64,000 nt of DNA from Rhizophagus irregularis. Its lineage: Eukaryota. The notes beneath the pieces were generated by a model, which did no database searches, was not told the DNA's origin, and saw only the letters and a list, made by a program, of their open reading frames with translations. The position numbers and the translations under genes were made by a program. Positions 794-59,729 of the stretch are shown in pieces. The stretch covers positions 4,588,001 to 4,652,000 of the forward strand of contig NC_089432.1 of assembly GCF_026210795.1 (NCBI RefSeq). The letters run 5' to 3'. Positions within the stretch are counted from its first letter, which is position 1. Each line of letters starts with the position of its first letter.

Positions 794-1903
794 ATGTCTT
801 CTGATAATAAGACGAATACGAACGAATGGATTAATCGGATTGAAGAAAAAACTATAATTACAAAAACAGATATAGCAGAAAATACCCAATTCTCAAGCGA
901 GCGAGGACTTAATGAGGAAACTTTATTAACTACCAATATTTCAGAATTACAAGGAAAATTATCTCAAATTTTTGACAAAATAAATATAAAAGAGATTAAT
1001 CCTATAACAGTATCAAAAGAAAGAGAGAAACTTTCATTTGAAAAAGGTTTTGACATAATAGTTGATGAAATAAATGATTTAATTTTTAAATCATTTAATG
1101 AAGGAATTGGAATTGAACCTAAATTATTAAAAAAAAAATTTATTGACCATTTTAATAATTATAATACTAATTCAAAAGAAATTTATAATTGGTTATTAAA
1201 TAATCAAAATAATTCAAATTCCATTTTTTTACTTGGATATTTAAATCGCTTTGGAATTGGAACAAGTAAAAATAATAAGAAAGCATTTAATTTATTTATC
1301 AGTGCATCAGAAAAACATCATTTTTTAGCACAAACTTTTGCTGGTGAATGTTATCAATGTGGAAATGGAATTACAAAAAATGAAAAATTAGCTTTTGATT
1401 ATTTAGAAAAACTTGCTAATAAAAATTTTGCACATGGACAATATAGAATTGGTTATTTTTATGAAAATGGAATAGGTATTAAAAAAGATTTAAAAAAGGC
1501 TTTTCATTATTATGAAAAATCTGCAAATAATGGGAACAAAATGGCTACATATATTCTTGGTTATTGTTATAAAAATGGAAAGGGTGTTGAAAAAGATTAT
1601 AATAAAGCTTTTGAATTATTTAGACAATCAGCTACAGGAGAATATTCAAATGGAATAGTAATGTTAGGATATTGTTATGAAATTGGTATTGGAATTGAAA
1701 TTGATATGCAAAAAGCATTTGAATTATATCAAAAATCAGCGGATTTAGAAAATATGGTAGCACAATATAATCTTGGTGTTATGTATGAAAATGGGAAAGA
1801 AATTACAAAAGATTTAAACAAAGCAATTTATTGGTATAAGAAATCTGCGCAACAAGGATATCAAAAAGCACATTATAGATTAAATTTACTTCAATACCAA
1901 TAA
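794..1903 (+). CDS. Sel1-like repeat (SLR) protein, intronless, paralog 1
   Basis: 369-aa ORF with tandem SLR motifs (e.g. AQYNLGVMYENGKEITKDLNKAIYWYKKSAQQG); no kinase domain. Confidence 0.9.
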   Translation: MSSDNKTNTNEWINRIEEKTIITKTDIAENTQFSSERGLNEETLLTTNISELQGKLSQIFDKINIKEINPITVSKEREKLSFEKGFDIIVDEINDLIFKSFNEGIGIEPKLLKKKFIDHFNNYNTNSKEIYNWLLNNQNNSNSIFLLGYLNRFGIGTSKNNKKAFNLFISASEKHHFLAQTFAGECYQCGNGITKNEKLAFDYLEKLANKNFAHGQYRIGYFYENGIGIKKDLKKAFHYYEKSANNGNKMATYILGYCYKNGKGVEKDYNKAFELFRQSATGEYSNGIVMLGYCYEIGIGIEIDMQKAFELYQKSADLENMVAQYNLGVMYENGKEITKDLNKAIYWYKKSAQQGYQKAHYRLNLLQYQ

Positions 1904-13000: not shown

Positions 13001-13069
13001 GCCATTTTCATCCCAGATGAATCCAGGGGGTTTACCCCAGACTTTTGATCAGTATGGCGGCTCATATTA

Positions 13070-13983
13070 AACTGATACATTTCCGGTTAATTAAAATTTT
13101 AACTGGATTTTTTTTATTCTAATAAATTAATACTAACAAAAAAGAGTATATTAATTGCGGTTATTACCACTCTCTTAGCTACCACAACTAACCATTTCTA
13201 TTAGATAATTTTTTTTTATTTTCGGATTTTACATCTAGCCTAGCGTTACCCCAAAAAAAGCACTGGTCACGCAACCATGTAAAAAATCATCACATCCGTA
13301 ATACTAATTAAATTTAAAATTTTACGTATGTATAAAACTTAGCAATACATGAGGGACTTAGTTTTTTTCGAGTTGATAAATTCGTCACACCTTATCTGTC
13401 ACCGCACTGTTCACGTGACAGTGCATAATGCCGGCCACCAGTGCTTTTTTTTGGGGTAAACGCTAGGGTAGTTGGTAAAAACTGAAACTACCTTTTTAAT
13501 CTTTTTTATTAATTTTTTTATCTCTTCGGCTAACTTTAACCAAAATTTTTTCTTATTCTTTTTTTATTATATTTTTATTGGGTTTTTTTAATCGGAATTT
13601 ATCAAAATTTTTGTTAACCCAAAGAATATTATTATTCTTTTTTAGTTTAGATCGGATCAAAACTATAATCAAATTAGAACTATGTCCTACAAATTTTTTG
13701 ATGTTCGATGAGATTTTTTTTAGTCAATGATATTGTTTCTGATTAATAAATTCGTGTAAAAATTTTTTTTTTAGTATCAACAAATTTTTTTTTAGTTAGT
13801 TTGTTTTTAATTATATAGATACATAACAATATTTACCTGCATATTATTTTATTTAAATTAATTTATATTTTATTACTCTCATAATCTAATTATTAATCAA
13901 AGTGAGCTTCTAATTGTGACTAAAAATTTAATATTATATAGTAATACTACTACTCCAGGTGCGAAGCAACGGGCAACTGCTAG
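13070..13983 (+). mobile_element. Non-autonomous Helitron-like element
   Basis: 3' hairpin-like ccaggtgcgaagcaacggg plus CTAG (13980-13983) followed by T; internal similarity to 48380-48830. Left boundary approximate. Confidence 0.6.
13239..13468. mobile_element. MITE with ~30-bp TIRs nested in the Helitron-like element
   Basis: cctagcgttaccccaaaaaaagcactggt / accagtgcttttttttggggtaaacgctaggg, flanked by TAG on both sides; absent from the related copy near 48540. Confidence 0.8.
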
Positions 13984-14086: not shown

Positions 14087-15196
14087 TTACAAATTATAAA
14101 AATTAAAAGATTTTAATTTATTTTGTGCTTTCTTAAATCCTTGTTTGGCAGATTTTTTATACCAATAAATTGCTTTGCCAATATCCTTTATAATTCCAAA
14201 TTCATACATAATACCAAGCTTATATTGTGCCTCACTACTTCCTAAATTTGCTGACTTTTGATATAATTCAAATGCTTTTTGCTTATCAATTTTAGTTCCA
14301 ATGCCATAATTATAACAATGTCCTAACATTGTTATTCCACCTGAACATCCTTCTTCAGCTGATTGCCTAAACAATTCAATAGCTTTATTATAATTTTTTT
14401 CAACACTAATTCCATCTTTATAAAAAAGACCAAGATTATATATAGCCATTTTGTTCCCATTATTTGCAGCTTTTTCATAATAATGAAAAGCCTTTTTTGT
14501 ATCTTTTTTAATACCTATTCCATTTTCATAAAAATAACCAATTCTTAATTGTCCATGTGTAAAATTTTTATTAGCAAGTTTTTCTAAATAATCAAAAGCT
14601 AATTTTTCATTTTTTATAGTTCCATTTCCACATTGATAACATTCACCAGCAAAAGTTTGTGCTAAAAGATGATGTTTTTCTGATGCACTGATAAATAAAT
14701 TAAATGCTTTCTTATTATTTTTACTTGTTCCAATTCCAAAGCGTTTTAAATATCCAAGTAAAAAAATGGAATTTGAATTATTTTGATTATTTATTAACCA
14801 ATCATAAATTTCTTTTGAATTAGTATTATAATTATTAAAATGTTCAATAATTTTTTTTTTTAATAATTTAGATTCAATACCAATTCCTTCATTAAATGAT
14901 TTAAAAATTAAATCATTTATTTCATCAATTATTATGTCAAAACCTTTTTCAAATAAAAGTTTCTCTCGTTCATTTGATATTGTTATAGGATTAATTTCTT
15001 TTAAATTTATTTTGTTATAACATCGGATAAGTTGAGATGACTCTTCTTGTTGTGATTCTGAATTATCATTAAATTTTTTATTACTTAAGAATTGGACATT
15101 TTCTGTTATATCTGTTGTTGTAATGATTTTTTCTTCAATCAAATTATTCCATTCATTCGTATTTTCGGTATATTGCATTTTCTTATTATCAGGCAT
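14087..15196 (-). CDS. Sel1-like repeat protein, paralog 2
   Basis: ORF with SLR repeats; start placed at MPDNKK by homology with the other paralogs. Confidence 0.9.
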   Translation of the reverse strand: MPDNKKMQYTENTNEWNNLIEEKIITTTDITENVQFLSNKKFNDNSESQQEESSQLIRCYNKINLKEINPITISNEREKLLFEKGFDIIIDEINDLIFKSFNEGIGIESKLLKKKIIEHFNNYNTNSKEIYDWLINNQNNSNSIFLLGYLKRFGIGTSKNNKKAFNLFISASEKHHLLAQTFAGECYQCGNGTIKNEKLAFDYLEKLANKNFTHGQLRIGYFYENGIGIKKDTKKAFHYYEKAANNGNKMAIYNLGLFYKDGISVEKNYNKAIELFRQSAEEGCSGGITMLGHCYNYGIGTKIDKQKAFELYQKSANLGSSEAQYKLGIMYEFGIIKDIGKAIYWYKKSAKQGFKKAQNKLKSFNFYNL

Positions 15197-15589
15197 ATTG
15201 AAATATAATAATTGGCAAAAAGTTTTAAAATGATAGGAATGAAATATCAAAGTTGTAAAATTTGTACGGTAACGAAATCAAGCTCCTTTTAACCGAATAT
15301 TGTCGCACAGCGTTAATAGTATCACCAAACAAAAAAGCTGACAATCATTAGCCGCAGTACCGCAGTATAACTTGCCGCAGAAATGTCATATACACGTGAT
15401 TTGATACCGATCAATTCACACAACCGAATTAGGCCTAAATATTTTTTGGGTTTTTAGGTTGAACGCGAATAAAAGAAAAAAGGAGCATATTTAACTTTTT
15501 TTTTGTGCATTTCTTTTACGTATTTTTTTTTAACATGCCTTCTCAGCAAATTCAAAGTTCCAAAATAACTAAACAAAATCCAAGAACGA

Positions 15590-19414: not shown

Positions 19415-21818
19415 ATGTCCACTCTTCGATATGAGTTAATTAATGCAACACTTAATAGAGTAACAACATTAACAGATACTAATATTTACAATGATATACA
19501 CAAACAATTTGAATTTCAAAAACAAACAGTCCTTGCTGATAAAATTCTTACAAATGATGAAAAAACTGAAGCGATGAGAGATTTAACTAAAAATTATGAT
19601 CGAAATAAAATTTTGGATGATGATGGTACAAGAAGAATTTGTGAAAATTGTAACCAAGAATGCTTAGCTACATTATATTGTGAATATTGTGTCCGAAATT
19701 ATTTACAAGAAAATTTTCCAAATTGGACATCCGGGAATGATGATATTGATAATTTAATACAGGAATGTCAAATGGAATCACTTAATCCACAAACGATTGT
19801 TGAATGGATCCCATATAGTAATTTAGAAAATATTAAATATTTAACAAAAGGTGGATTCTCAGAAATTTATTCAGCAGGCTGGATTAATGGAAATTATGAA
19901 GAATGGGATTTTGAAAAAAAACAATTAAAAAGATTTGAAGATTGCAAAGTAATATTAAAAAAATTAGAAAATGTCAAAAGTGCAAATCAAAGTTGGTTTG
20001 AAGAGGTTTGTATTATTGTATTCTATATTTCATAAAATTGTGATTTTTGTATTAGCACTAGTATTTTTACAAATTATTGTCTTTTAGGCTAAATCACATT
20101 TAACTATAAGTAATAAATGGGCAGATGTTGTTCGATGTTATGGTTTAACACAAAATCCATCAAATGGAAATTATATGCTTGTAATGAATAAAATGGATAT
20201 AGATTTAAGAAAATATTTACAACAAAATCATAATCAACTTACATGGAAAAAGAGAATTAATATTACTTTTGAAATAATTCTCGCACTTTACTATATTCAT
20301 TTTGAGGAAGCAATTCATAGAGATTTACATTCTGGAAATATATTATATTCACAATTAAATGATTCCTGGTATATTAGTGATCTTGGATTTTGTGGACCTG
20401 CTGATAAATCTTCAACAAGTATATATGGAAATCTTTCTTACATAGCACCCGAAGTTATTATTGGAAGAAAATATACTTTTGCATCTGATATTTATAGTAT
20501 TGCAATGCTTATGTGGGAAATTTCATTTGGACAACCACCATTTATGGATTATGAAGATGAACATATTCTTGTATATAATATTATTGATGGTATAAGACCA
20601 AAAATTGTACCAGGAACTCCATTAGAATATAAAAATTTAATGAAAGAATGTTGGGATGCTGATCCATTAAAAAGACCTGACATTTGTGCACTTGAGGATA
20701 GAATGTTAAGAATTAATTTAGATTATCAAAATATGTCAGATGAATTATTCAAATCAGAAATAGATAATTTAGAAATGAATAAAGTAGAAGAAAATTATAC
20801 GAGTAGCAGATTATTTACAAGTAAAATTCACAACTTTGGAAATCTACCTGAACCAAGAAATGCAACAGAAGGTATAAGTGTATAATATTTTATTAATGGA
20901 TGTATTTATTTTAAAATACATTATTAATGTTATCTTTTTATTATAATAATAGAAGAACAAGAAGGTATAAACGTATATAGAATTTTTGGTTACTATAATT
21001 ATATAGTTTTAAATACTTTATTTTACTGTTAATAGTGTTTCATAGTAAATTGTATGATTTTAACATTCCTAACAAAAGTAAGTATTTAATAACATTATAG
21101 CGTCGAATTATCATGTAATGATGTCTACTGATAATTAATTTTTATTTTAGTTAACGACTTTAATAAATCAAATGAGCAGTATAGTAAGAAATTATCAAGT
21201 ATAATTAATAAATGTTTTTAAAGGTGATTTGTTTGAAATAATAGATTAAAGATTAAAATCTATTTCTATGTTCTTAATTTTAGGTGATAGTGAAAAATTA
21301 CCCAAAGAATTTATAAATTTGCAAAATTCAAATAGTAAGTAAATAAGTAATATTCATCGTTTCAGTTTCATTTATTATATAACATGACTTTTATTTTAAA
21401 AATAATACGACGAAAAAGAAATTATTCAACAACAAATGTAAAGGAAAGATATTGATATTGATGGTAAGCAAAAAAAAGTAAAAATTATTTTGTCAATATA
21501 TTTATTTAATGTATAAACTTTAATTTAAAAATTTAGATGATGAAAAAGAAATAATTCAACAAAAAACTAAAAGGCAAAATATTGGTGATATTGATGGTAT
21601 GCGAATTTTTAATTTAATTTAATTTTTATATTATTTTTTAATTTAATTATTCATTTCTTACAGATGAAGATGAAGTATATAATAATCCAAACTTTCATTC
21701 AAAAGAACAAGATGAACTGGAAATTCCTGATGGTAAGTTCTTGAATAAATAAGATTTCTTTATAAAGCAAATAATTAATTTATAATTTGTCATTTTTTTA
21801 ACTTTAGATGGATTTTGA
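19415..21818 (+). CDS. Multi-exon protein kinase (Glomeromycotina-type expanded family), copy 1
   Basis: Exon 19415-20005 (CxxC motifs, WTSGN, KGGFS); exon 20088-20871 (HRDLHSGN, DLG, APE, DIYS); then several short acidic 3' exons, including a 12-nt one at 20953-20964. Probable premature TAA at 21439-21441 in the tail. Confidence 0.85.
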
Positions 21819-23833: not shown

Positions 23834-24934
23834 TTATTTTTTAAGTTTTTTCAATTTATTTTTTGCTTCCTGATAACCTTGTTTGGCAGATTTTTCATAC
23901 CAATAAATTGCTTTGTCTATATCTTTTGTAATTCCATCTCCATGTTCATACATATTACCAAGATTAAATTGTGATGTAATACTTCCTAAATTTGCTGATT
24001 GTTGATATAACTCAAATGCTTTTAGCTTATCTTCTTCAGTTCCAATACCGTTATCATAACAATAACCTAATGAAGTCATTCCACTTGCATATCCTTCTAT
24101 AGCTGATTGATTAAATAATTTAAAAGCTTTATTATAATCTTTTTTAACACCTTTTTTTCCATACTTATAGCAATTACCAAGATAATGCATAGCTATTACA
24201 TTTCCATTATTTGAAGCTTTTTCATACCAATAAAAGGCCTTTTTTATATCTTTTTTAATACCTATTCCATTTTCATAAAAATAACCAATTCTTAATTGTG
24301 CATATGCAAAATTTTCATAAGCAAATTTTTCTAAATAATCAAAAGCTAATTTTTCATTTTTTATAGTACCATAACCAAATTGATAACATTCACCAACATA
24401 AGATTGTGCTAACATATGATTTTTTTTTAATGCATCAATAAATAAATTAAATGCTTTCTCATTATTTTCTTTTGTTTCAATTCCAAAATAATTAAAATAT
24501 CCAAGTAAAAAAATGGAATTTGAATTATTTTGATTATTTAATAACCAATTATAAATTTCTTTTGAATTAGTATTATAATTATTAAAATGGTCAATAATTT
24601 GTTTTTTTAATAATTTAACATCAATTCCTTTATTAAATGATTTAAAAATTAAATCATTTATTTCATCAACTATTATATCAAAACCTTTTTCAAATGAAAT
24701 TTTTTCTCGTTCATTTGATATTGTTATAGGATTAATTTCTTTTAAATTTATTTTGTTAAAATATTGATGATTAAGTTGAAATAATTCACCTTGTGATTCT
24801 GAATTATTATCAAATTTTTTATTGCTTAAATATTGAGTATTTACTGATATATTTGTTATTGTAATGATCATTTCTTCAATCCTATTATTACATTCATTCG
24901 TATTGGTATCTTGCATTTTCTTATTATCAGACAT
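23834..24934 (-). CDS. Sel1-like repeat protein, paralog 3
   Basis: ORF with SLR repeats; start at MSDNKK by homology; downstream flank is homologous to the flank of paralog 1. Confidence 0.9.
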   Translation of the reverse strand: MSDNKKMQDTNTNECNNRIEEMIITITNISVNTQYLSNKKFDNNSESQGELFQLNHQYFNKINLKEINPITISNEREKISFEKGFDIIVDEINDLIFKSFNKGIDVKLLKKQIIDHFNNYNTNSKEIYNWLLNNQNNSNSIFLLGYFNYFGIETKENNEKAFNLFIDALKKNHMLAQSYVGECYQFGYGTIKNEKLAFDYLEKFAYENFAYAQLRIGYFYENGIGIKKDIKKAFYWYEKASNNGNVIAMHYLGNCYKYGKKGVKKDYNKAFKLFNQSAIEGYASGMTSLGYCYDNGIGTEEDKLKAFELYQQSANLGSITSQFNLGNMYEHGDGITKDIDKAIYWYEKSAKQGYQEAKNKLKKLKK

Positions 24935-27900
24935 ATTGAAATATAAATAATTGGCAAAAAGTTTCAAAATGATAGGATGACGGTAACAAAAGTAACTCCT
25001 TTTTAAGTAATTTATGCGTATTATTCTCCGAATATTGTCGCACAGCGCCATTAGCGGTCAATCATTAGCCGCAGTACCACAATTGCCATAGAAAAATGAG
25101 ATGTTTGCGTGATTTTATGCCGATCATTTCTAAAAATGTTAAGTCAAATAAGTTAAATAAGTTAATTATATCAATATTGCGTAACTCTCCATTTACGTCG
25201 ATTAATAAAAGTATTAAATTTTTGTCTTGTTGATAGATAATTCTTTTTGGGTAATGCAAATATTTGTAATTTTTATAAACTTGATAGATGATATTATTAA
25301 ATTTAAACTTTTCAATTTTTTTTTTTAAGAATTTTATCTAATTTTAAAATTTTAATTGTTTCCACTAATAAAATTGGTTATATTACTTATTTTATAAAAA
25401 TAAATTTTCATTTATAAAAAAAGAATCCATGGATAAAATTCACCAAATAATAGCGAACAATTGTGCAAATTATTATGAATAAAATAAAATTATCCAGATA
25501 TGGTATTGTAAAAAAATTGGTGAACAATACTTTTCTTCTAATAATAGAAATAAATATCTTAAGATCGATCAATTTAAAACTTAAGAAATAAAACTGAGAA
25601 AAATTTTATTAGCAATACAACGACTTAAATAAGTCTTATACTATTCACATGTAATAGTAATTTTTAAATTGTTTACAAAAGTTCTTTTGTAAATGGTTGT
25701 TTAAGACCCACATTTACTAAAATTAATCATCCAAATATATTATTTTTTTCTTTATAGTACTCGACTCTGTATCTTCACCATTTTCATGTTTAAAAAAATA
25801 AATGATCTTATTCTCATCCTTATGATAAGCAAAGGATATTGCATTATCTAAGGGCATAAGGGATGAATACATTGACGCAAAAATATAACTTTAGTTATTG
25901 ATAAATTCGCCTTAACCAAAAAAAGAAATAAATATCTTTTTTTCTAAAAAAAAAAAATTCGATATGTATATATTTTCTCATATATGCATTAAATTAGAAT
26001 AAAAATACTTTAAAAAGAGATAAATCAATAATATTTTAATTAAAAACCTTTTTAAGTAAACAAAATAATTTTAATAGTGAATAGTGTGAATTAAAATCAA
26101 TATTTGATAAATAATTAATTTATTAAAAGCTTTTATAAATCAACACTTTAACACTCAGTCATATTTTCATTAAAAAAAAAAATACATATTTACTTGCAAT
26201 TTTTTTTTTAATAAATACAAAAAATAAATTTTTATAAAATAAATAATTTTTAATCATTAGCACATTTCATTTTCTTCTCATGCAATGGGAATCCTATTCC
26301 AACATCATTTTTTTTAATATATATATAATAACTTTTACAATGTTAAAAGATTATACTATTATAATTCTGGAAAGAAATACAGTTATATAATAAAAAAAAA
26401 AGAAATAATTTTTTTTTTAATATATATATCATATATTAAAATTTATTATATTATTTAGAAGGGAACCTTTTCATGGCGATATTAAGCGTTTTTGAAAAAA
26501 AAATTCATACTTTTATATTATAAAAAAGTTAATTACTAATCCCACATATATAAGGAATAGGTTATGCACCTTCCCTTATAGTAGTTAAAATTTTATAATA
26601 TTAATATTTATATATAAATATATTAGCAATATATTGTTTATTTCAAAGTTAAATATTTTATAAAGTTAATGGAAAAGAAAACTATTCTTCCTACAGCAAG
26701 TAATATTTTATAATAGTAATTAAAAAATTAGTCCATGTGGAACAGTTCATATTAGTAATTAAAAAATTATTTATATAAATAATTTTTATACATATAAAAA
26801 ATAAGCCTAAAGGAGAAATCAGTTATGTATACTTATACATAAAATAATTGAAAAAAGCTTGTATTTTTGTATAAACTATTAACTATTTAATTAGTATTTT
26901 TTATTTATTTTGAATATACATAAAATATTCAATTATATATTTTCCTATAGTAGTTGTAAAATACACTGACAAACATTTTTAATATCATATACTGTATACA
27001 TTTTAATAAAATAATTCAACAGTTAACATCTGTCCGGTAATTACGATATATTAATTTATTTATAATTCTACTATTGTGATTTATTTAAAAAATTAAGACA
27101 GAATACATTTAACATTAACATCTAAAGTAACAAAAAGGCAACACTAGAAACTATATTCAAAGTTACTGGCTAAAAAAAAAATAATAATAATTATTGTGCA
27201 AATACAATATTAGTAAAGTTATATAATTTTATGATATCAAAAGTCAATGGTATATCTGACGATAACTATTGGATAATTATATATTTTGTAATATAAACAA
27301 CCTACAAGTTTACTCTATTTACTTATCGTAAATAATTTTCTCCAATGTTTTTTTCCGTAGATTTTATTTATATTATAATATGTAATAAAAGTAAAGTATA
27401 GATAAATTATATATAGAATTTTGTTTTTTACAAAAAACTTTCATTACATAGTAGCATAACTAAAAACTATTCCAGTATAATTTCATTATCTATTACTTAT
27501 TCTAAAATTTTTTTGACACATTATTTTTAGTCAGTACTGTAAAATCACAAATCCATTGCATTTATTTTGATACTATGACGAACTTAACCTATCACATGAT
27601 TAAATCATTGTTTACCAAAATATTAAAAGACAATACTTTCATTCCCACCATTACCAGTGATTCGCGCAGTAGGCGCAGCGTACATTACTTTTCTTTACCA
27701 CAAAACCTGAAATATAGTCTTCCTATCCTCAAAAATTGATCATTGAAAAAAAATAAAAATCCACAGTATAATGTAATCATATTTGATGATATTACAACCA
27801 ACTTTATTAGAGCAATAGAGCAATAATAATGAGATACTTAGATAAGCAAATAGTTAAAACTAAATGATTGTTTTACTTAAATCATGAATAATAAAGTTAA

Positions 27901-36077: not shown

Positions 36078-37264
36078 AAGAAGGAGTGGAAATGCAATTC
36101 TGGATGAATTTATCTTTAAAAAGGATTTAAAATGGATTTCTTATAATCAATTTATTAATGTTGAATATCTTAATCAAGGAGGATTTGGTATTATATACAA
36201 AGCTATTTGGTTAAATGATTATAAGGATGAAGAAGTAATTCTTAAATGTCATGATAAGTTAAATGAAAATTTAAATGAATTTTTACATGAAGTATGATAT
36301 TAACATATTAGTATATTATTTTTTTTTTAATAATTATTTATACTGATTGATTATTATTTTTTTTTTTATAGTGGAAATACCATGAAAGATGTTTAGATTC
36401 AAATAATATCATTAATTTTTATAAATTTACAAAAAATCCAGATAATTTAAAATATATGGTAGTAATGGATTATGCAAACAAAGGTAATTTAAGAGAAAAT
36501 TTAGCAAGAATAATCAAAAATAATTGGAAACAAAAATTATATATGTTGTATGAGATTATTTCTGGACTTAATGAGATACATCAGCAAGATCTTATTCATT
36601 GTGATTTTCATGATGGTAATATTTTAAGTCATAATGATAGGAATGAGGATAAAATTTATATTAGTGATTTGGGATTATGTCAACCTGCAAAATCATTTTT
36701 AAAAGAGTACGTTATTTTTGGTGTTATACCATTTATGGCACCTGAAATTTTAAGAGGCAAAGCTTATACTCCTGCTAGTGATATATATAGTTTTTCTATG
36801 ATTATGTGAGAACTTACAGGATACCACCATTTAATAACAGGGCACATGATATTCAACTTAGTTTAAGTATTTGTAAGGGTGAACGTCCTGAAATTATTGA
36901 AAATACTCCACAATGTTATGTAGATTTGATGAAAAAATGTTGGAATGAAGATCCATTAAAAAGGCCATCATCTGAAAAAGTCTTAGATATTATTAAGAAA
37001 TGGATTTATCTTCCTTATGAAATGAAATTTGAAGATATTGATGAGAACTTAAAATGCAGTGTTATGGAATTTATAAATACACCAATTAAGCATAACACTC
37101 TTGTTACTGAATCTCATTCGCAAGCATGTTATACAAGTCGCTTACTTGATTTTAGTAGTAAAAACTTAAATGAAATTCTTGAAAATGAAGATTTACAAGC
37201 TAGTATGAAAGTGAATGAAATGCTAGTAAGCGAAGATTTAAATAATTGTATAATTAAGATTTGA
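36078..37264 (+). pseudogene. Protein kinase with premature stop and frameshift
   Basis: Exon 36078-36291 (SGNAILDEFI, QGGFG, VILK); exon from 36372 (HCDFHDGN, DLG, APE, DIYS). TGA at 36807-36809 where Trp is expected, followed by a frameshift. Confidence 0.8.
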
Positions 37265-44225: not shown

Positions 44226-46630
44226 TTAAAATCCATCTAAAGTTAAAAAATAACAAATTATAAATTAATTATTTGCTTTAAAAAGAAATTCAATTTATTT
44301 AAGAACTTACCATCAGGAATTTCCAGTTCATCTTGTTCTTCTGAATGAAGATTTGGATTATTATATACTTCGTCATCATCTGTAAGAAATAAATAATTAA
44401 ATTAAAAAATAACATAAAATTAAATAAAAAATTCGCATACCATCAACATCACCAATATTTTGTCTTTTCGTTCTTTGTTGAATTATTTCTTTTTCATCAT
44501 CTAAAATTTTTAAATTAAAGCTACATTAAATAAAATATATTGACAAAATAATTTTTACTTTTTTTTTGCTTACCATCAATATCAATATCTTTCCTTTTCA
44601 TTTGTTGTTGAATTATTTCTTTTTCGTCATATTATTTTTAAAATAAAAGTCACGTTATTTAATAAATGAAACTGATACAATGAATATTATTATTTCACTT
44701 ATTTACTTACTATTTGAATTTTGCAAATTTATAAATTCTTTGGGTAATTTTTCACTATCACCTAAAATTAAGAACATAGAAATAGATTTAATATTTAATT
44801 AATTATTTCAAATAAATAACCTTTAAAAAATATTTATTAATTATACTCGATAATTTCTTACTATACTGCTCATTTGATTTATTAAAGTCGTTAACTAAAA
44901 TAAAAATTAATTATTAGACATCATTACATGATAATTCAACGCTATAATGTTATTAAAAACTTACTATTGTTAAAAACGTTAAAATCATACAATTTACTAT
45001 GCAACACTATTAACAGTAAAATAAAGTATTTAAAACTAAATAATTATAGTAACCAAAAATGGTAGAAATTATTGTTATACCTTCTTGTTCTTCTATTATA
45101 ATAAAAAGATAACATTAATAATGTATTTTAAAATAAATACATCCATTAATAAAATATTATACACTTATACCTTCTGTTGCATTTCTTGGTTCAGGTAGAT
45201 TTTCAAAGTTGTGAATTTTACTTGTAAATAATCTGCTACTCGTATAATTTTCTTCTACTTTATTCACTTCTAAATTCTCTATTTCTGATTTGAATAATTC
45301 ATCTGACATACTTTGATAATCTAAATTAATTCTTTCCATTCTATCCCAAAGTGCATAAGCGTCAGGTCTTTTTAATGGATCAGCATCCCAACATTCTTTC
45401 ATTAAATTTTTATATTCTAACGGAGTTCCTGGCACAATTTTTGGTCTTATACCATCAATAATATTATATACAAGAATATGTTCATCTTCATAATCCATAA
45501 ATGGTGGTTGTCCAAATGAAATTTCCCACATAAGCATTGCAATACTATAAATATCAGATGCAAAAGTATATCCTCTTCCAACAATAACTTCGGGTGCTAT
45601 GTAAGGAAGATTTCCATATATACTTGTTGAAGATTTATTAGCAGGTCCACAAAATCCAAGATCACTAATATACCAATAATCATTTAATTGTGAATATAAT
45701 ATATTTCCAGAATGTAAATCTCTATGAATTGCTTTCTCATCATGAATATAACTAAGTGCAAGAATTATATCATAAATAATCTTAATTCTCTTTTTCCATG
45801 TAAGTTGATTATGATTTTGTTGTAAATATTTTCTTAAATCTATATCCATTTTCATCATTACGAGAAAATAATTTCCATTTGATAGATTTTGTGTTAAACC
45901 ATAACATGGAACAACTTCTGCCCGTTTATTACTTATAGTTAAATGTGATTTAGCCTAAAAGACCATAATTTGTAAAAATACTAGTGCTAATACAAAAAAT
46001 TACAACAATTTTATAAAATATAGGATACAATATACAAACCTCTTCAAACCAACTTTGATTTGCACTTCTAACATTTTCTAATTTTTTAAGCACTATAACA
46101 TGATTTCCGCGTCTCTTTAATTGTTTTTTTTCAGAATCCCATTCTTCATATCTTCCATTAATCCAGACTGCTGAATAAATTTCTGAGAATCCACCTTTTG
46201 TTAAATATTCAATATTTTCTAAATTACTATATGGGATCCATTCAACTATATCCTTTGGCTCGAGTGATTTCATTTGACATTCCTGTATTAAATTATCAAT
46301 ATCATCATTCCCGGATGTCCAATTTGGAAAATTTTCTTGTAAATAATTTCGGACACAATATTCACAATATAATGTAGCTAAGCATTCTTGGTTACAATTT
46401 TCACAAATTCTTCTTGTTCCTGAATTATAATTAATTTTATCTCGATCATAATTGTCAATTAAATATCTTATTGCTTCAATTTTTTCATCATCTGTAAGAA
46501 TTTTATCAGCAAGGACTGTTTGTTTTTGAAATTCAAATTGTTTGTGTATATCATTGTAAATATTAGTATCTGTTAATGTTGATACTCTATTAACTGTTGC
46601 ATTAATTAACTCATATCGAAGAGTGGACAT
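44226..46630 (-). CDS. Multi-exon protein kinase, copy 2 (inverted paralog of 19415-21818)
   Basis: Same exon-intron structure and highly similar sequence; HRDLHSGN, DLG and APE are intact. Confidence 0.85.
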
Positions 46631-48369: not shown

Positions 48370-50363
48370 CAATCTTTAAACTAATACATTTCCAGTTAAT
48401 TAAAACTTTAACTTGATTTTTTTTTATTCTGATGGATTAATACTAATATAATTTTTCTTATTAATTGCATTTATTTGGGTCATTTCCGCTCTCTTAGTTA
48501 CCACGAATCAATAATAATTTTTTTTATTTTTCAGTTTTTACCGTAAAAACTGAAACTACCTTTTTAGTCTTTTTTTTTATTAATTTTTTTATCCCTCTTT
48601 TTATCATTATTGTAACTTAACCAAAATTTTTTCTTATTCTTTTTGTTTTGTTTTATTTTTATTGGTTTTTTAATCGGAATTTATCAAATTTTTTTTAACC
48701 CATAGTTTATTCTTTTTTTTTTTGGTTTTGGTCAAGACTATAGAACTATGTCCTAGTGTCCTACGGCTTTTTCGATGTTTTGTGAGATTTTTTTTAGTCA
48801 ATGATATTGTTTCTGACTAATAAATTCGTGTGAAATTTGATTTAGTAACTTAAATTTTTTTTTAAACTGATCACTGTCAAAATTATACGTTAATTAAATA
48901 AAAATAATTTATTGTATTTATTGTGAGAACTTTTTTGATTATTGAGATTTTTTTTTTCGATTTATATGTGAGAACTTTTTTTGTTTATGAGATTGTTTTT
49001 TTCAATATTATTTCCGACTAATAAATTTGTGAAAATTTTTTTTGATATTAACTGTTAACGAATATTTTTTTAGTGAGATTGGTTTTAATTATATAGATAT
49101 TCTGTAATTAAATCTACAATAAATTTTTGATAAATCTATATATCTAAAAAAACTATATAACTAAAAAAATTTGTCTGACGTTTGGATTAGTCTCTGCATA
49201 ATAATTTGAATTGTGTAACTTGAAATCCCATGCCATATAATTAAAACCGTGACATGCCTCCACCTGATCTATTTATCCGTGTACATTCCAATCAACTAAT
49301 ACAATTTCAGTTAATAAATTTTACCTTGATCGGAATTTTTTTAAGATTATTAATAAACTGAAAAAAAATTTTCTCCCTTTCTTCTTTCGGTTTAGTTTTT
49401 TTTTCAAACCCAAAAATTTGTTTTTTCTCAGTTTAGATTTATTTTTTTTTCCCAAACTGAAAAATATTTTTTTCGAATTATTGTCCTTTTTTTTTGGAAA
49501 TTTCCCTTTTTTTGTACCGATTTTTTTATATCCTTTTTCTTTCCCCCAAATTTATTTTTAAATTTTTTTTTCTTTCAATTTTTTTTATAATAACATGTAG
49601 AAAAGATTTTCAATTAAATTGAACGATGGATAAATAGTTTGATTTTCAAATTCATAAAAATCAAAAAAAAATTGATATTTTTACAATATTTTACAATTAA
49701 TTAATTAAAGAAATTGTTGATTTAATAATAGACTATTATAACCAAATCCATATCCAAAATTCTCTAAATAATCACCAGATTTTTGAATAAAAATTTTAAT
49801 ACAAATGGTTTAGTTAAATTCGAATAAAATGAGTTATCAAAAGAATAATAATAAATGAAATGAAATATTTAATTGTTCAAATATTTTTCCTTTTTTCCAT
49901 GAATGTGTTCCAAGGCCAATAATCAAGTTGATTATAAGTTTAAAATTGACGTAATATAAAATAATAATAAGAAATAATTATAAAATTTATAATTAATTAA
50001 TAAAAATATTTGTAGTATTTTCATAATATTAAAGTTTTTTCAAAAATACTTCTGAAAAATTAATCAACTTTTATTGATAATTGTTTTTTCACAATTCCTA
50101 ATTAATCCGAATTTCACTCTACACTCAAACATCAAATCATTAATATAAATAGCTACATGATTCTAAAAATAATTTATTATTTATATCATTCTAATATTAT
50201 AAATATAATTTAATACATATTTTTTGTTACCTAATTATTACCATATTAAATTCTAATTATAAACAAAAAACTTCTTTAACTTACTTAGTATCACATTATA
50301 ATACTAAACCTTTCTATTTAAAAAACTCATTGGTCCCGGTGCGAAGCAACAGGTGACAGTTAG
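48370..50363 (+). mobile_element. Non-autonomous Helitron-like element(s)
   Basis: Similar to 13070-13983; 3' end cccggtgcgaagcaacagg...TTAG followed by T. Boundaries approximate. Confidence 0.5.
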
Positions 50364-50842
50364 TTTGTTGTTATTTTTAAATCTTATTTAAAAAAATCAA
50401 TTCGAGAATTTTGAAATGATTGTTTGATCACATTTTTAAGGAGTTGATCACACGGCAGCTGCTGTGTAATAAACAGTTAATAAACAATATTAACAATATT
50501 AAGCATCTTTTTTTTTTAATGAAGATGGAACTTTTTGAAAATGAAGCGCAACAGAAGGATATTTAGATAATTTCAGTTACAATTTACGTAAAATCAAAAA
50601 ATTTTTATTTTTAAAAAATATAAAAAATATTCAAAATTACAAATAAAATTTTAAATTACATAAGATATTTTTTTTATGATACATATGATACATGTTGATA
50701 TAAAGAAATTTATAGAAATAATAGCTCCAGGCCATTTCGTAACGAATAGTCATTAGGTATAATTTTTTGGTTAAAACTGATCTTCATGTAATAACCGAAG
50801 TCGTTAAGTCGTTTGTGCCGTCCCCATAGAAGAAATTTCCGT

Positions 50843-50944
50843 TTACATTATAGAGCATGAGTTTGTAGGATTACCATCAGGTTTTTCAGTTACTTCGGAA
50901 GTAATAATAACAATTGGTTTAGAGGTAATAATTGTTGGATTCAT
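50843..50944 (-). CDS. 33-aa CAAX-terminated peptide, candidate lipopeptide (a-factor-like) pheromone precursor
   Basis: MNPTIITSKPIVIITSEVTEKPDGNPTNSCSIM*; AAAAATG start context; TATAAATA about 130 nt upstream. Confidence 0.6.
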   Translation of the reverse strand: MNPTIITSKPIVIITSEVTEKPDGNPTNSCSIM

Positions 50945-51071
50945 TTTTGATTAATTTACTAATTGAGAATTTAATATTTGTTTGATTTCTTTGATTAATT
51001 TGATTAGTTGATTATTTTTTTGTTCTTTGGACTTTTTCTTTTGATGAAATTTTACGAGGTGAAGCCAAGTG

Positions 51072-51079
51072 TATTTATA
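51072..51079 (-). promoter_or_regulatory. Putative TATA box of the CAAX peptide gene
   Basis: TATAAATA on the minus strand upstream of the ATG at 50944; weak evidence on its own in AT-rich DNA. Confidence 0.3.
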
Positions 51080-53580
51080 ATAAACTAAACAAACAAAATT
51101 TTAGGCTTTTAAAATATCTATTATCATCGTAGAAAATTAGAATTTTACATAATTTACATTGTTTTATTATTATGTAATTTATTTTTCATTGTTATTTCCT
51201 TTCCTATGTATCGTATTGTTTTCTTTTTGATATTCTCCCTTTATGTTTCAAAATTGTCTAGATCATATCGGGTATATCCTTTTTTAGAAATTATTTAAAG
51301 ATTGGTATAAAATCTATTATCTGATATAGCAATAATATTCATGCGTTACGTCGGCCATATTCCCAACAAGTAAATTGACTGTTGCACAGATTAATATTCT
51401 TGATTTGCTTACAGTCACTGTCACGATACATTTCCGTGTGATAACGATAATAATTTATTTATGATATATTTAATTAAACCTTGCAAAATGAAATCAAACC
51501 AATTATCATATATTATAATAATATGTTCAATATATTCAATAAATCTTTTTGTTAATTGATGTGTTGACACTATGTAAAAGTGAAAATCATAATATGTCTG
51601 TTTGAGAAGCTTAGCATAATATTTATTTATAAATTTGGATAAAAATGGAAAAGTAATTTTCTATCAGTGAATTATTCCAGCGGCAAGAGTTTTCACAATC
51701 ATCTTATTAAAAAAAAAATGGGTAAATAATAGATAAATAATAATATTAAAAGCAACAATGATAACTGGCCTGACAGTGATGATTGTTTGATTAATTTTAT
51801 TGTTTGAAAAATTTTTAAAAATGGGTTAATTGACTTATTTTTATTTTTTTAATTATTGAGAATGATTTGATTTATTATTATTATTCGATTACTTATTATC
51901 ATAAATTCTTAGCAATGATTCTTATTATCTATAGCTTATTTGTCTCTTGTCTTAGTGTTTAGTGTTTCATTTTACGTAAGGTAGTATAATATCACGTGAT
52001 TGATAATCATTTGTTTTTTATACCTTTTTAACACAAAAAAAGTGTGTTCTAGATCCAGGTTGTGTCACTCACGTGAGCACAATCTGATCCTGTCAAATGA
52101 CCTCTATCGAAAACAGCTCGTTATTGATAATTCTTGTTATGGAGCCAAAAATAAATAATTTTTACAGAAAATTGTGTAGCAGGTAGTACTCAAATGGGTA
52201 GTACTCATATCAGGGATAAATCTTTACGAATGTAAAGTTATTTATAAATAAATAAATATTTAGTTTATATTTAGAACAAAAACATTATTATTCTTGAAAG
52301 TTTTTTATAGAATATTTACAAATTGAAAAAATGTTCGTAAAGAAATAAAAAAAAAAGACATGTAGTACTAGTTGCCTTTTCTAGAGCGAACTTTTCTTAG
52401 TGATCATCTAAAAAAAAAACCATGATCTTTGATCTGCAACATATAAAATGATCATACCAGTATCATACCTAAAAAATTTTTTAAAAACAAGTTAAGAATA
52501 TTTTTTCTTTAACCTTTTTGCATCATTACATTCTTTTATTTATAAATTATTATTGATATGTTTTTCTATTGTAATGTATTTAAATTTTGTGGCTCTACAT
52601 AATATTCTATGAACTGTTAACAACATCACTTACGTTTATTTTTAAAAAAATTTTAGTTAAAATATTAGCAATTTTTCATTTGTTACAAGCTTAATATATA
52701 ATGTACACGCTTAACTGAAATACCTTCCTTTGAAAATTTCTCGTGATTGCTATCCAATAAATTTCGTGATCGTGACCTTTTTTTTATTAATTAATTACCG
52801 TAAGGAAAAAAATAAAAATTTTAATTAAAATATTGGCATTTTTTTCATTTGTTACAAACCTAATATATAATATAATCTTTGAAAATCACGCTTAAAATAA
52901 CGACAAGATGTAATTATTCAATCAAATATACAAAAATATGTGGTGTGAAACAAAATTATTGTATTTTAACGAAAACGTTTTGCGACGTAATTTAATAAAA
53001 CCGTTGCGAAAACGTTTTTTTAGATAGTTTAATTAAAAAAAAAACGTTCTTATTTATTTTTTATTTAAATATAAAAATATTATTTAAAATTTATATTGTA
53101 TAAATACATTTTCTAAAGTAAACTGAATTTACAATTTATAATATTAAATAATACTTATTTAAAACTATATGAAATATATTTTAAATAAAAAAACTACATA
53201 GACATATTTTACACATTTACTCACTGCTGCACAAAAACTAACAATTCTGAAGGTATGATAAAATTATTAAGATACTAAAAAATTTGCATAATTAAACTCA
53301 ATTATGGTTGAAAAATATTTATTATAAATTCAAATGTCATGATTTTATTAGAAATGAACAAGTTCAAAATAAATCACATTTCATATATTTTATATTTTAT
53401 AGTCCTAACTCCCCTTTAAACATGAACTCTTGTTAAAACCTTAGTACTAAATTAGATTTAAGCAGTATCAAAAAAAATTCGCGAGAATATTCCTTGATAC
53501 TGCTTAAATCTTTAAATTATACTAATTTAAAAATTAATTCGTAATTCGTGCAACAATCGGAGAAAATCAACCGAATTAAT

Positions 53581-56161: not shown

Positions 56162-58759
56162 ATCGCCAGCGAGATTTTCCTTACAGTAATACTGACCTAA
56201 AGGCTGATTAAATTGACTACGCAGATATTTTACTATACATATCTAGATACAAACTAAGCATTTGTTCTTATAAAAATAATAATTAATTAACACGAAGTCT
56301 AACAAAGGACTTTTTTTAACGTGAAATGACACAATGTTCCATTTATCACAATATACAGCATTTTAGACTTACCCGTTTCCGTTTTTCCAGTTTCAAGAAA
56401 TTTAAATTAACATTTAATAATATTATATGAGAGGACTAACTATTTTTTCTTATTAGTAATTAAAACGTTTCTTATAAATTAAGGCTATTTTATGAATTAA
56501 AAAAAAAAATGAAAAATCGAGTTATTTAATTTAGTGATCAAAAAATCACATTAGATGGTAGATTTCACTTGACTCGATTTCAGCCCATCATTATTTTATT
56601 TGAATTTTCGAATGTTAAGTCATTTGAATTTAATCAAAGGATATAATCTTTTGGACCATGTTATTAAATACATTTGCTAAAATTAAAAATTAAATAAATT
56701 AAAATAATACTTTTAGATGAGAATAAAAATTTTATTTTTAACTTATAGTTATGTATGATAATATATTTAATAAAAGTAAACAAATCGTTACTATTTATTG
56801 CTGACTTAACCAAGTCTTTAAAAAACTTGTTCTATATAAAAATTAATTATAATCGTTTCACCCCCCTCCCTATTGTCAAATTAATTCAAATTTTTTGTCG
56901 TGAACTCATAAATCTCGTTCACCTCCCATATCTCAATTATTCGTGATGACCGCTTTGTCCCCAGCTGCTAAACTTTTTCCTGAATTTTTGTTTTTGCCGA
57001 ATTTTGTACCACCAAAATCACCTCAGTGAATTTAATTCGTTCCTTCGAAAAGCCTCCATTACCATTTTTGGAATCTGATCGCGTGCTAAACTTTTTGCTG
57101 CGCTGACCGAACAACTGTAGCAACGAAAAAAAAATTCCAAATTCAAAGAGCAAAACTATCAACACCTATGAAAATATGTTTAGTTCTTTATTTTTTGCCG
57201 AAGTTATTTATCGCTTGCCGAAGTCTTTTTGCGTGACGAAACCTTACTACCATGTAGCGCTCTGTGCTAACCAAGGAAAATAAAAATTTGTTTTCATCAA
57301 AAAAATTAGTGAACTAATATTAAAAGTCTAATAAAGTTTATATCATAATGTTCTTGAAAGAGTGAATAATCAGTTGGTCATGATAAAATAAGTTCAAACG
57401 AACTTTTCTATATGCGCACTTTTTGAACTCTTTCACCCTTTGTTCAGTCTTAAAATTTTTGCATGATGATCGGCGGAAAAAAGTTCTTCCCTCAGTCCAT
57501 AATATCAGAAACTTTAATATGTAGTAGTACAGAATATTAATTAATGTATATGCATTAAATTTCTATTTCTAGTTTTTGTTTTATAAGAGAAAATTTAATC
57601 TTTAAAAACAGTAATGTATTTCCACCGACATTCTAATTTTACATAATAAAATACTTTAATTTTTAATACTCAATTGTATATTATCAATTTATGTACTTAT
57701 TAGTTTAAAGGTAAATAAACAAAAATATTATTCTTCCGTGTGAAACTTATACAAGTAAAATATTATTCTACATATGTAAAAGTATTGTTTTTTCTTTTGT
57801 GTGAACTGTGAAATAACTTTACAACATAATCTCCTTCATATAATGTAAATCTTTTTTTAAAAAGAATTTGTTGTTTATATAAATATTTATTTTTTCTCAC
57901 GATGAAATAATTTTTTTTTTCACTTTCCTATTTATCGTATCATTATTTTATCCCCTTCTGTATACAGATCACCAATAGGTGACGGATACTTAATAAAAAA
58001 TAAAAAATTTCCGATTTAAAGATTCAAAACAAACTGACGTCAATATTATCTAAAAAGATGTGCTGATTGTGGCGGAAAGACACGATACGTTGATACGCCC
58101 AAAAAAATAAATAAACGAGTTTAGAATAATTTGTATTGCGTTTAATTTGCTTAATTTGCTCAAGCTTGACGTGACGCAACTCTGCTTGTACTACATTTTT
58201 TTGATCATAAAAAGTCGCGTAAATAAAAATCATTTTGTAAACTTCTTTTTCTCAAAAATTTAACTTGTCGTTTTTTTCTGACTAGTTATTTTTTATTTTT
58301 TACTGACTCGACTAACTCGTCGTTTTTTTTACTGACTCGTCGTTTTTTTACTGTTGAAAGCTACTGACTGTCGTACTGTTTCAAAAGTTACTAATCATTG
58401 ATATTTTGTTCCAGAAAGTTACCGACTTGGCTGACTCGACATTACTGACTCTTCATTTCTTTCTCAAAAATTGCTGTACGTTATTTGTCATTTCTTTTCC
58501 AAAAATTACTAACACGCCATTTTTTCTCCTTACTGTACTAACTTGTCATTTATTTCCTGAAAGTTACCATACTAACTATACTAACTCGTCATTCTTTTTC
58601 AAGAAATTACTAATTCATCATGATAAATTTTAGAAACGCACGTAGTGAAATTAAAGAACGTGATGAAGATGAGCCACAGCAAGTAGGTATAACTTCTGAT
58701 ATTAAAGCCCTTCAAATTTTTAGATTGCGTTTTCAAGAATGACCTATACTGTGTCCTTG

Positions 58760-59590
58760 CCGCACTGTATTCAAGTATGCCATTTGAATAAGTTGTTTGT
58801 TCTTGCCATATTGTGTGTTAAGAATAACATTTCTCGCCACATTGTATTCAAGTATGCCATTTGAATAAGTTGTTTGTTCTTGCCATATTGTGTGTTAAGA
58901 ATAACATTTCTCGCCACATTGTATTCAAGTATGCCATTTGAATAAGTTGTTTGTTCTTGCCATATTGTGTGTTAAGAATGACATTTCTTGCCACATTGTA
59001 TTCAAGTATGCCATTTGAATAAGTTGTTTGTTCTTGCCATATTGTGTGAGATCACCTGCAAAGGTGATTTCAAGAATGATATATTCTTGTCACATGGTAT
59101 GAGGTCACCTGCAAGGGTGACTTCAAGTTCAAACCATTTGGTATTCTTGCTATATCGTGTGAAACATGTGAGAATGCCGTTCTTGCCATGGTATGAGGTC
59201 ACCTGCAAGGGTGACTTCAAGTTCAAACCATTTGGTATTCTTGCTATATCGTGTGAAACATGTGAGAATGCCGTTCTTGCCATGGTATGAGGTCACCTGC
59301 AAGGGTGACTTCAAGTTCAAACCATTTGGTATTCTTGCTATATCGTGTGAAACATGTGAGAATGCCGTTCTTGCCATGGTATGAGGCCGCCTGCAAGGGT
59401 GACTTCAAGTTCAAACCATTTGGTATTCTTGCTATATCGTGTGAGACATGTGAGAATGCCGTTCTTGCCACATGGTATGAGGCCGCCTGCAAGGGTGACT
59501 TCAAGTTCAAACCATTTGGTATTCTTGCTATATCGTGTAAGAGAATGCCATTCTTGTCACATGATATGATGTCACCTGCAAGGGTGATTC
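58760..59590. repeat. Compound minisatellite: 77-bp unit (~3.7 copies) then 94-bp unit (~5 copies)
   Basis: tgtattcaag at 58766, 58843, 58920 and 58997; gaggtcacctgcaagggtgac (later gaggccgcc...) at 59101, 59195, 59289, 59383 and 59479. Confidence 0.9.
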
Positions 59591-59729
59591 ATAAAATCAA
59601 TCTAATGAAGTTTCTTTAAGTACTTTTCTTATTGTAAAGAAACTCGGGCTTTGTTATATATATACTGATATTACTCTTAATGCATATTATCATTAACTAT
59701 CCTTTCTATTAATAGTTTCCATTATTACC

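What the first reader, a model, noticed from the sequence alone, without database searches (positions are those of the whole stretch)
50843..50944. Candidate farnesylated peptide pheromone precursor in a presumed AM fungus
Seen: an isolated minus-strand 33-codon ORF, MNPTIITSKPIVIITSEVTEKPDGNPTNSCSIM*, below the ORF-track cutoff, with A-rich start context and an upstream TATAAATA. Established: yeast a-factor and basidiomycete pheromone precursors are short, lack signal peptides, end in CAAX (X=M favours farnesylation), and in mushrooms are often cleaved at a charged dipeptide about 10-13 residues before the Cys. Here EK lies 10 residues before the Cys. Inference: a mature peptide like (E)KPDGNPTNSC-farnesyl could be an Ste3-type receptor ligand, relevant to cryptic sex or hyphal fusion signalling in this lineage.
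Basis: partly seen in the sequence, partly recalled or inferred. Interest (0 to 1): 0.85.

Follow-up and report, generated by a model that had tools for sequence, protein, structure and literature searches.

The report
Missing pheromone family of mycorrhizal fungi
This 33-amino-acid gene belongs to a conserved, multi-copy, heavily transcribed family found across arbuscular mycorrhizal fungi and hidden by faulty annotation, and it likely encodes the fat-tagged signalling peptide (pheromone) that these seemingly asexual fungi were predicted to have but that we found no report of.

Summary
The ORF is real: 33 codons ending CSIM-stop. Alone it is at chance level (1 seen, 1.5 expected per 64 kb). 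The family around it is not. Searches returned 75 related database proteins; all 32 with a taxon name are Glomeromycotina (11 species). Conservation centres on TE(K/Q/R)P…N-x-CSIM (dN/dS about 0.14, search-biased), while 3' flanks are random-like and a TATA box is kept. One polyA run puts about 0.08% of its reads on this ORF (about 7,600x), with no read splicing the intron that public annotation uses to remove the CAAX. Only about 60 reads match this exact copy; most come from paralogs or alleles. 18 of 21 Diversisporales members are tandem precursors that keep an internal CAAX-like motif, as in the rhodotorucine A precursor. A 2013 paper reports STE3 and STE6 in these fungi but no pheromone gene. 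Best reading (0.62): an a-factor-like farnesylated peptide that signals through Ste3. Farnesylation, cleavage site, export and receptor are inferred, not shown. A mating-type role is unsupported: variants coexist in single DNA runs and no receptor gene was found nearby. No description found in the held literature.

The parts
50843..50944 (-). 33-codon precursor ORF with TAA stop
   Evidence: family
50846..50857 (-). CAAX box C30-S31-I32-M33 (predicted farnesylation on C30, removal of SIM, carboxymethylation)
   Evidence: 63 of 76 stored family proteins contain C[STL]I[MV] and 42 end in it; the commonest read variant in the Cys codon is synonymous; the modification is inferred
50855..50887 (-). 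Predicted mature peptide region E20-C30; the N-terminal cut is not determined
   Evidence: dN/dS 0.14 from TE to CSIM vs 0.44 in the pro-region; E..C length 9-13 in 84 of 84 regex-selected units
50888..50944 (-). N-terminal pro-region M1-T19; carries a PxIxIT-like stretch here, Thr/Ser-rich in Diversisporales; no signal-peptide-length hydrophobic core
   Evidence: best 12-residue Kyte-Doolittle mean 1.53, interrupted by S-K-P
51018..51036 (-). 5' read pile-ups at 51018, 51029, 51036 (likely transcription starts of family transcripts)
   Evidence: table 6; library unstranded
51072..51079 (-). TATAAATA box conserved in the family
   Evidence: 103-146 nt above the ATG in the window and 7 of 8 loci analysed; the eighth has only 111 nt of upstream DNA; invariant columns
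51244..51250 (-). TGAAACA, a Ste12/PRE-like site (significance inconclusive)
   Evidence: 5 of 8 sequences within -150..-450, but the hexamer over 500 nt gives 5 observed vs 3.9 expected
50581..50842 (-). 3' UTR with depth falling off to about 50580, including an AT-rich element at about 50581-50660 shared by paralog contigs
   Evidence: depth and joints tables
50777..50846 (-). 70-nt 'intron' of the public gene model (GT inside ATG-TAA; AG at 50778-50777) that removes the stop and the CAAX; likely an annotation artefact
   Evidence: in-silico splice reproduces U9SPW3; none of 11 listed joints matches it, depth 1,270-2,120 at 50801-50840 inside it, acceptor G differs in 126 of 139 reads

Best explanation
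This is a transcribed member of a Glomeromycotina-wide family of short CAAX-ending precursors whose product is likely farnesylated on Cys30, trimmed, exported and likely sensed by the fungus's Ste3-type receptor as an a-factor-like signal between hyphae. Shown: ORF, family, conservation, family-level transcription, no use of the annotated intron in the one RNA run, tandem precursors. Inferred from the yeast a-factor route (PMC2134810, abstract): Ram1/2 farnesylation (about 0.9), SIM removal and Ste14 methylation, removal of the pro-region near T19-E20 to give a lipopeptide of about 9-13 residues, Ste6 export (about 0.75), Ste3/MAPK signalling (about 0.62). The biological output is more likely hyphal recognition, fusion or density sensing, which may include cryptic mating, than a strict mating-type switch.
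For: (1) Family: 11 hits at E<=1e-3 among 1.84 billion representatives; 61, 65 and 58 hits in three profile searches. Of 75 database proteins, 32 carry a taxon name and all are Glomeromycotina: Rhizophagus 10, Diversisporales 21, Entrophospora 1 (weak, E 0.17). (2) Selection: pooled dN/dS over the window and L001-L008 is 0.28 overall, 0.14 from TE to CSIM and 0.44 in the pro-region; the downstream 100 nt are 54% alike, as when shuffled (55%). CSIM-TAA is kept in 7 of 9 AT-rich metagenome loci. (3) Read variants: Cys30 and Thr19 synonymous; I11V, I14V, V18L conservative; the two largest ORF indels are 3-nt; one paralog's loose end reads as TGA instead of TAA. (4) RNA: 8,822 and 9,496 of 11.05 M reads; about 7,600x over the ORF against 0 at 51474-52000. 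(5) Tandem precursors: 18 of 21 Diversisporales members have unit-CxIM-spacer-unit with the internal motif kept (CSIM 16, CTIM 1, CLIM 1) although spacer and pro-region differ. L007 shows an uninterrupted tandem in DNA. The rhodotorucine A precursor has this layout (PMC3068285, passage). (6) STE3 (one copy found) and STE6 are reported in Rhizophagus/Glomus with no pheromone gene found (PMC3834313, passages). Multi-copy genes conserved in the mature region are a stated pheromone trait (bioRxiv 2021.09.28.462209, passages).
Against: No biochemical or genetic evidence. The C-terminal dN/dS is biased low because one of the two locus-search seeds was the C-terminal motif, and the pairs are not independent. 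Only 58-61 reads are 99% or more like the window's own copy, so this copy's expression is low or strain-confounded; there is one RNA run only, of unknown condition. The mature region is polar (GRAVY -1.86) and has no aromatic residue. It is highly conserved across orders, whereas mate-recognition peptides tend to diverge (recalled). No STE3 match among the window's longer ORFs. Forms with and without D23 and a third pro-region type occur in one DNA run (X10). EK/ER is in only 64 of 84 units. Tandem spacers have no dibasic site (0 of 16), so the protease is unknown. I could not check STE3, STE6, RAM1, STE14 or STE24 myself: no genome is held.
Confidence: 0.62

Rival explanations
1. An intracellular, membrane-tethered micropeptide: farnesylation anchors it and the PxIxIT-like stretch (residues 10-15; motif recalled) docks calcineurin, or it acts as a prenylation-pathway decoy.
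For: The window copy and 20 of 54 non-Diversisporales proteins have PxIxI[TS] in the pro-region; high transcript level.
Against: 0 of 21 Diversisporales members and 0 of 1 Entrophospora member have the motif. The pro-region is the least constrained part (dN/dS 0.44). Conserved internal, non-terminal CxIM copies are hard to explain without release of separate peptides.
Confidence: 0.13
2. An exported lipopeptide, made as above, whose target is not Ste3: a signal or effector aimed at plant roots, associated bacteria or another fungal receptor.
For: Found only in Glomeromycotina among named hits; conserved across orders; no receptor match in the window; several variants per DNA run.
Against: STE3 and STE6 are reported without a known ligand, and the architecture matches fungal pheromone precursors.
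Confidence: 0.17
3. The public gene models are right: the ORF is the first exon of a longer protein, spliced at the GT within ATG-TAA, so the CAAX is never C-terminal.
For: U9SPW3 (54 aa) is exactly this splice; 11 of 76 proteins show this truncation type; GTAA resembles a donor site.
Against: None of 11 listed joints matches; reads run through the intron; the acceptor is lost in 126 of 139 reads. The added tails of such models do not align with each other. Internal tandem CSIM is kept where no GT donor follows (L007). Caveat: few reads are from this exact copy.
Confidence: 0.04
4. A non-coding repeat, small mobile element or RNA gene in which the ORF is incidental.
For: Multi-copy and dispersed among kinase/Sel1-rich regions; a CAAX small ORF is expected by chance.
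Against: Synonymous excess and 3-nt indels; conservation ends at the stop codon; no Rfam match at E<=1; protein-level conservation across orders.
Confidence: 0.03

Closest known systems
Saccharomyces cerevisiae a-factor (MFA1/2) and a-type lipopeptide pheromones of Dikarya
   Same: Short precursor without a signal peptide, C-terminal CAAX, variable N-terminal extension, multi-copy, conservation concentrated at the C-terminus (PMC2134810 abstract; bioRxiv 2021.09.28.462209 passages).
   Different: No sequence similarity detected (no Dikarya name among 32 named hits; no Pfam hit). Polar mature region. No conserved Asn that would give a 5-20 residue product by the yeast Axl1 rule: the invariant N is 2 residues before Cys. 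No evidence of mating-type restriction.
Rhodotorucine A precursor (Rhodosporidium toruloides) and Tremella precursors
   Same: Tandem peptide units separated by CAAX-like spacers (PMC3068285 passage); seen in 18 of 21 Diversisporales members and in L007.
   Different: The window copy is single-unit; stored tandems show two units; spacers are 7-12 aa without dibasic sites; no sequence likeness shown.
Agaricomycete B-locus pheromones (Coprinopsis, Pleurotus)
   Same: Acidic residue 9-13 positions from the Cys, often acid-basic; mature size 9-15 aa with ER/TR sites (PMC4136793 passage).
   Different: Precursors of 57-61 aa in Pleurotus against 30-35 here; EK/ER in only 64 of 84 units; no linked STE3 match in the window.
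Trichoderma reesei HPP1 (h-type precursor)
   Same: Repeated CAAX-like motif with a polar second residue (C-S/T-V-M) and terminal Met (PMC3068285 passages).
   Different: HPP1 has three copies and Kex2 sites; here one or two copies and no dibasic sites.

Membership tests
a-type (CAAX) fungal pheromone precursors | Short ORF that is really transcribed | tested here: met
   33 aa; family-level depth about 7,600x in one polyA run, 58-61 reads at 99% or more for this copy
a-type (CAAX) fungal pheromone precursors | C-terminal CAAX followed by stop, conserved | tested here: met
   CSIM-TAA in the window and 7 of 9 AT-rich loci; 42 of 76 proteins end in C[STL]I[MV]; annotated intron not used
a-type (CAAX) fungal pheromone precursors | No N-terminal signal peptide | tested here: met
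   Hydropathy scan only, no SignalP: best 12-residue mean 1.53, broken by S-K-P; Thr/Ser-rich in Diversisporales
a-type (CAAX) fungal pheromone precursors | Multi-copy, conservation highest in the mature C-terminal region | tested here: met
   dN/dS 0.14 vs 0.44 (search-biased); 8 R. irregularis records; 9, 14 and 12 contigs with the Cys-codon variant in three DNA runs (contigs are not copy numbers)
a-type (CAAX) fungal pheromone precursors | N-terminal processing site giving a 9-15 aa mature peptide | tested here: inconclusive
   E in 83 of 84 regex-selected units, 9-13 from Cys; acid-basic in 64 of 84; cut not shown
a-type (CAAX) fungal pheromone precursors | Farnesylation, carboxymethylation and Ste6 export | not testable with these tools
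   STE6 ortholog reported (PMC3834313); no genome held
a-type (CAAX) fungal pheromone precursors | Activates an Ste3-type receptor | not testable with these tools
   STE3 ortholog reported; no receptor sequence was available
a-type (CAAX) fungal pheromone precursors | Mating-type-specific alleles or expression | tested here: inconclusive
   Variants coexist in single DNA runs; mating types of the runs unknown; one RNA run
a-type (CAAX) fungal pheromone precursors | Ste12/PRE control of the promoter | tested here: inconclusive
   TGAAACA in 5 of 8, top of 210 same-letter 7-mers, range chosen after seeing the sites; TGAAAC 5 vs 3.9 expected
Basidiomycete P/R (B) locus pheromones | Physical linkage to STE3 receptor genes | tested here: not met
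   No STE3 Pfam match in 101 window ORFs (most of the 103 of 70 aa or more, plus a few shorter) or 51 of 66 locus ORFs; shorter exons would be missed
Rhodotorucine-type tandem precursors | Tandem units with internal CAAX-like spacers | tested here: met
   Met in relatives (18 of 21 Diversisporales; L007); the window copy itself is single-unit
Calcineurin PxIxIT-docking proteins | Conserved PxIxIT motif (recalled) | tested here: not met
   0 of 21 Diversisporales, 20 of 54 others

The most novel reading that the evidence does not exclude
This family is the missing ligand of the single AM-fungal Ste3: the first peptide pheromone outside the Dikarya, conserved across Glomerales and Diversisporales and abundantly transcribed. 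It would act as a shared or autocrine lipopeptide signal for hyphal recognition and fusion, with its variable middle residues tuning who fuses or exchanges nuclei with whom. That would place the farnesyl-peptide/Ste3 system before the split of Mucoromycota and Dikarya and give a synthetic handle on cryptic sex in AM fungi.
Probability: 0.5. Interest if true: 0.93.

Novelty: new variant of a known kind. Interest (0 to 1): 0.86.

Why it matters
Whether AM fungi have sex, and how their hyphae recognise partners, is a long-standing open question. Receptor, exporter and MAPK genes were reported in 2013 without a ligand, and a 2020 co-inoculation study saw no upregulated pheromone genes. Here is a concrete candidate family that gene predictors hid by splicing at the GT inside ATG-TAA or by skipping short ORFs. 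A lipopeptide of about 11 residues can be synthesised and tested on germlings or on Ste3 in yeast, which sidesteps the lack of stable transformation in these fungi. It also lets existing RNA-seq be re-counted for the family.

Tried and rejected
The CAAX/TATA pattern as evidence in itself: chance level. No whole genome is held, so no paralog count, no check for pathway genes and no MAT linkage. The exact 33-aa sequence is not in the 15-billion collection. ESM Atlas gave no usable hit for the window peptide or a tandem member (uninformative). Pfam: none for the peptide. PDB: one hit at E 0.69, dismissed. Rfam: none. The run search listed no RNA holder; the one raw RNA run was added by species label. 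Three guessed-RNA contig runs (X15, X16, X20) were not used for expression; X15 covers all 30 bins like DNA. L010 and L011 (GC 72-73%, matching residues 4-23 only) were dropped as false hits; L009 (no ATG) was left out of the dN/dS. P0006's tandem is probably a splice artefact joining two neighbouring single genes and is not used as proof of tandem structure. PRE enrichment is inconclusive. That CSIM is also the prelamin A CAAX box is recalled; the paper checked does not print it. Five look-ups of earlier findings returned nothing. No fold or complex job was sent: a 33-aa prenyl peptide without a receptor sequence would be uninformative. Supplements were not read; Table S3 of PMC3834313 may bear on the receptor claim.

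Full report
Observation. The ORF is as described: 50843-50944 on the minus strand, 33 residues ending CSIM-TAA, closed upstream by an in-frame stop, with TATAAATA 135 nt above the ATG. On its own this is unremarkable: 60 block shuffles give 1.5 +/- 1.2 strict CAAX ORFs of 20-60 aa per window against 1 observed. The window is AT-rich with Sel1-repeat and kinase genes. No whole genome is held.

Family. phmmer against 1.84 billion representatives gave 11 hits at E<=1e-3; of 10 looked up, 6 carry taxon names, R. irregularis or Diversispora eburnea. Three profile searches gave 61, 65 and 58 hits; the last added one new protein. In all, 75 database proteins were stored; 32 carry taxon names, all Glomeromycotina (Rhizophagus irregularis, R. 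clarus, Diversispora x2, Acaulospora, Cetraspora, Gigaspora x2, Dentiscutata, Racocetra, and a weak Entrophospora hit at E 0.17). A few rows are weak (E 0.85-2.4). No Dikarya or Mucorales name appears, but these are word-seeded searches of annotated proteins, so absence is not shown. Of 76 proteins including the query, 63 contain C[STL]I[MV] and 42 end in it. The core is T-E-(K/Q/R/D)-P, a variable stretch, then N-x-C-S-I-M; E lies 9-13 residues from Cys inclusive in all 84 regex-selected units, and EK/ER makes up 64 of them.

DNA evidence. A metagenome scan gave 11 loci from 57 candidates; 9 are AT-rich and 2 GC-rich ones were dropped. Seven of the 9 keep CSIM-TAA, one has CAA in place of the stop, and one is a two-unit tandem. 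Over the window and L001-L008, pooled dN/dS is 0.28, 0.14 from TE to CSIM and 0.44 in the pro-region. Coding identity averages 78%, while the next 100 nt are no more alike than shuffles (54 vs 55%), and TATAAATA is kept in 8 of 9. One search seed was the C-terminal motif and the pairs share ancestry, so 0.14 is biased low.

Expression and the annotation artefact. In one unstranded polyA run of the same species label, 8,822 and 9,496 of 11.05 million reads lie on this stretch, peaking near 7,600x over the ORF, with zero depth at 51474-52000 and 5' pile-ups at 51018-51036, 36-54 nt below the TATA box. Most reads differ from the window and carry other UTRs; only 58-61 are 99% or more alike. So the family is abundant, and this copy's own level is not settled. 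The commonest listed variants are synonymous at Cys30 and Thr19 and conservative at 11, 14 and 18; 3,897 of 5,817 reads lack one codon (D23) in frame. The same variants occur in DNA runs, so they are paralogs or alleles and not editing. UniRef U9SPW3 is this locus spliced from the GT in ATG-TAA to an AG at 50777, which deletes the stop and the CAAX. None of the 11 joints listed matches that intron, depth inside it is 1,270-2,120, and the acceptor G differs in 126 of 139 reads. Eleven stored proteins show this type of truncation. This explains how the family escaped notice.

Tandem precursors. 18 of 21 Diversisporales members read unit, CxIM, spacer, unit; the internal motif is CSIM in 16, CTIM in 1 and CLIM in 1, although spacer and pro-region are unlike each other. 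Sixteen proteins hold two complete units (one, P0006, is probably a splice artefact), and L007 shows an uninterrupted tandem in DNA. An internal CAAX cannot be prenylated unless released (established knowledge), so its conservation points to processing into separate lipopeptides. This is the layout described for the rhodotorucine A precursor (PMC3068285, passages).

Mechanism. By analogy to a-factor (PMC2134810, abstract and outline; PMC6078402, passages): farnesylation of Cys30 (terminal Met favours it; PMC3068285), removal of SIM, methylation, N-terminal trimming near T19-E20, Ste6 export, Ste3 signalling. All of these steps are inferred. Halary et al. (PMC3834313, passages) report one STE3 copy, STE6 and the MAPK cascade in Rhizophagus and Glomus and state that no peptide pheromone gene was found. 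Mateus et al. (PMC7490403, passages) found no upregulated pheromone genes. I put the Ste3-ligand reading at 0.62.

Against a classical mating-type pheromone. No STE3 match was found in the window's longer ORFs or the loci. Several variants coexist within single DNA runs. The peptide is polar and conserved across orders. A PRE-like TGAAACA sits 249-344 nt upstream in 5 of 8 sequences, but the published hexamer consensus (PMC12997298, passages) is not enriched (5 vs 3.9). A vegetative or autocrine recognition role is at least as likely as a strictly sexual one.

Rivals. A calcineurin-docking micropeptide (0.13): the PxIxIT-like stretch is absent from all 21 Diversisporales members. An exported signal to another target (0.17): cannot be excluded. 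First exon of a longer protein (0.04) and non-coding repeat (0.03): largely refuted.

Novelty. Searches pairing AM fungi with pheromone, CAAX, farnesyl or lipopeptide terms (listings only unless named above) and a search for five family motifs (3 papers matched, the 2 listed are unrelated) found no description of this family. Passages of PMC6339444 cover only Kex2-type candidates in R. irregularis and call the pheromones of other early-diverging fungi largely unknown; PMC8778642 adds nothing; the yeast CAAX screen does not mention these fungi; PMC4136793 gave the mushroom processing rule. The library lacks most subscription journals and no supplements were read, so prior description cannot be excluded.

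Verdict. A real, mis-annotated, conserved family that works most plausibly like a-factor-type pheromones; membership is unproven until modification, export and receptor activation are shown. New variant of a known kind; interest 0.86.

Noticed in passing
P0009 and P0031 (R. irregularis gene models); window 50800-50950 plus strand: These models continue into the antisense reading of further family copies (once in P0009, twice in P0031; compare), which implies clusters of inverted paralogs. Pairs on contigs of equal length with close gene numbers (P0006/P0054, P0010/P0022) or equal contig length (P0007/P0051) also suggest local clusters.
   Followed up: partly
L007:696-863: Tandem gene whose internal unit keeps CSIM while the terminal unit has Tyr in place of Cys; either a decaying copy or a hint that internal units are released and used.
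   Followed up: no
L002:115-345 and L009:523-597: Apparently decayed copies: stop codon read as CAA in L002; ATG and 5' UTR missing right after the TATA box in L009. Suggests birth-and-death turnover.
   Followed up: no
window 50873-50878: The form lacking D23 makes up 67% of reads in the RNA run but only 2-16% of summed contig depth in three DNA runs, so paralogs may be unequally expressed; strains differ, so this is only a hint.
   Followed up: partly
window 51087-51099 and 50581-50660: A short T-rich motif just upstream of the TATA box is shared by the window and L001, L004, L005, L006; an AT-rich downstream element is shared by paralog contigs at varying distance from the stop. Possible shared promoter and 3'-end signals.
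   Followed up: partly
window 773-1903, 14087-15277, 23834-25057: Three long Sel1-repeat ORFs, with kinase exons at 20088-20885, 36372-37264 and 45157-45954; kinase or kinase-Sel1 genes also flank L003 and L006.
   Followed up: no
window 12269-13070: Two AAA_12 (helicase-type) exons.
   Followed up: no
window 58600-59620: Tandemly repeated sequence that gives near-identical ORFs on both strands.
   Followed up: no
window 50000-50400: High-copy repeat in contig runs with low RNA depth, just downstream of the transcript.
   Followed up: no
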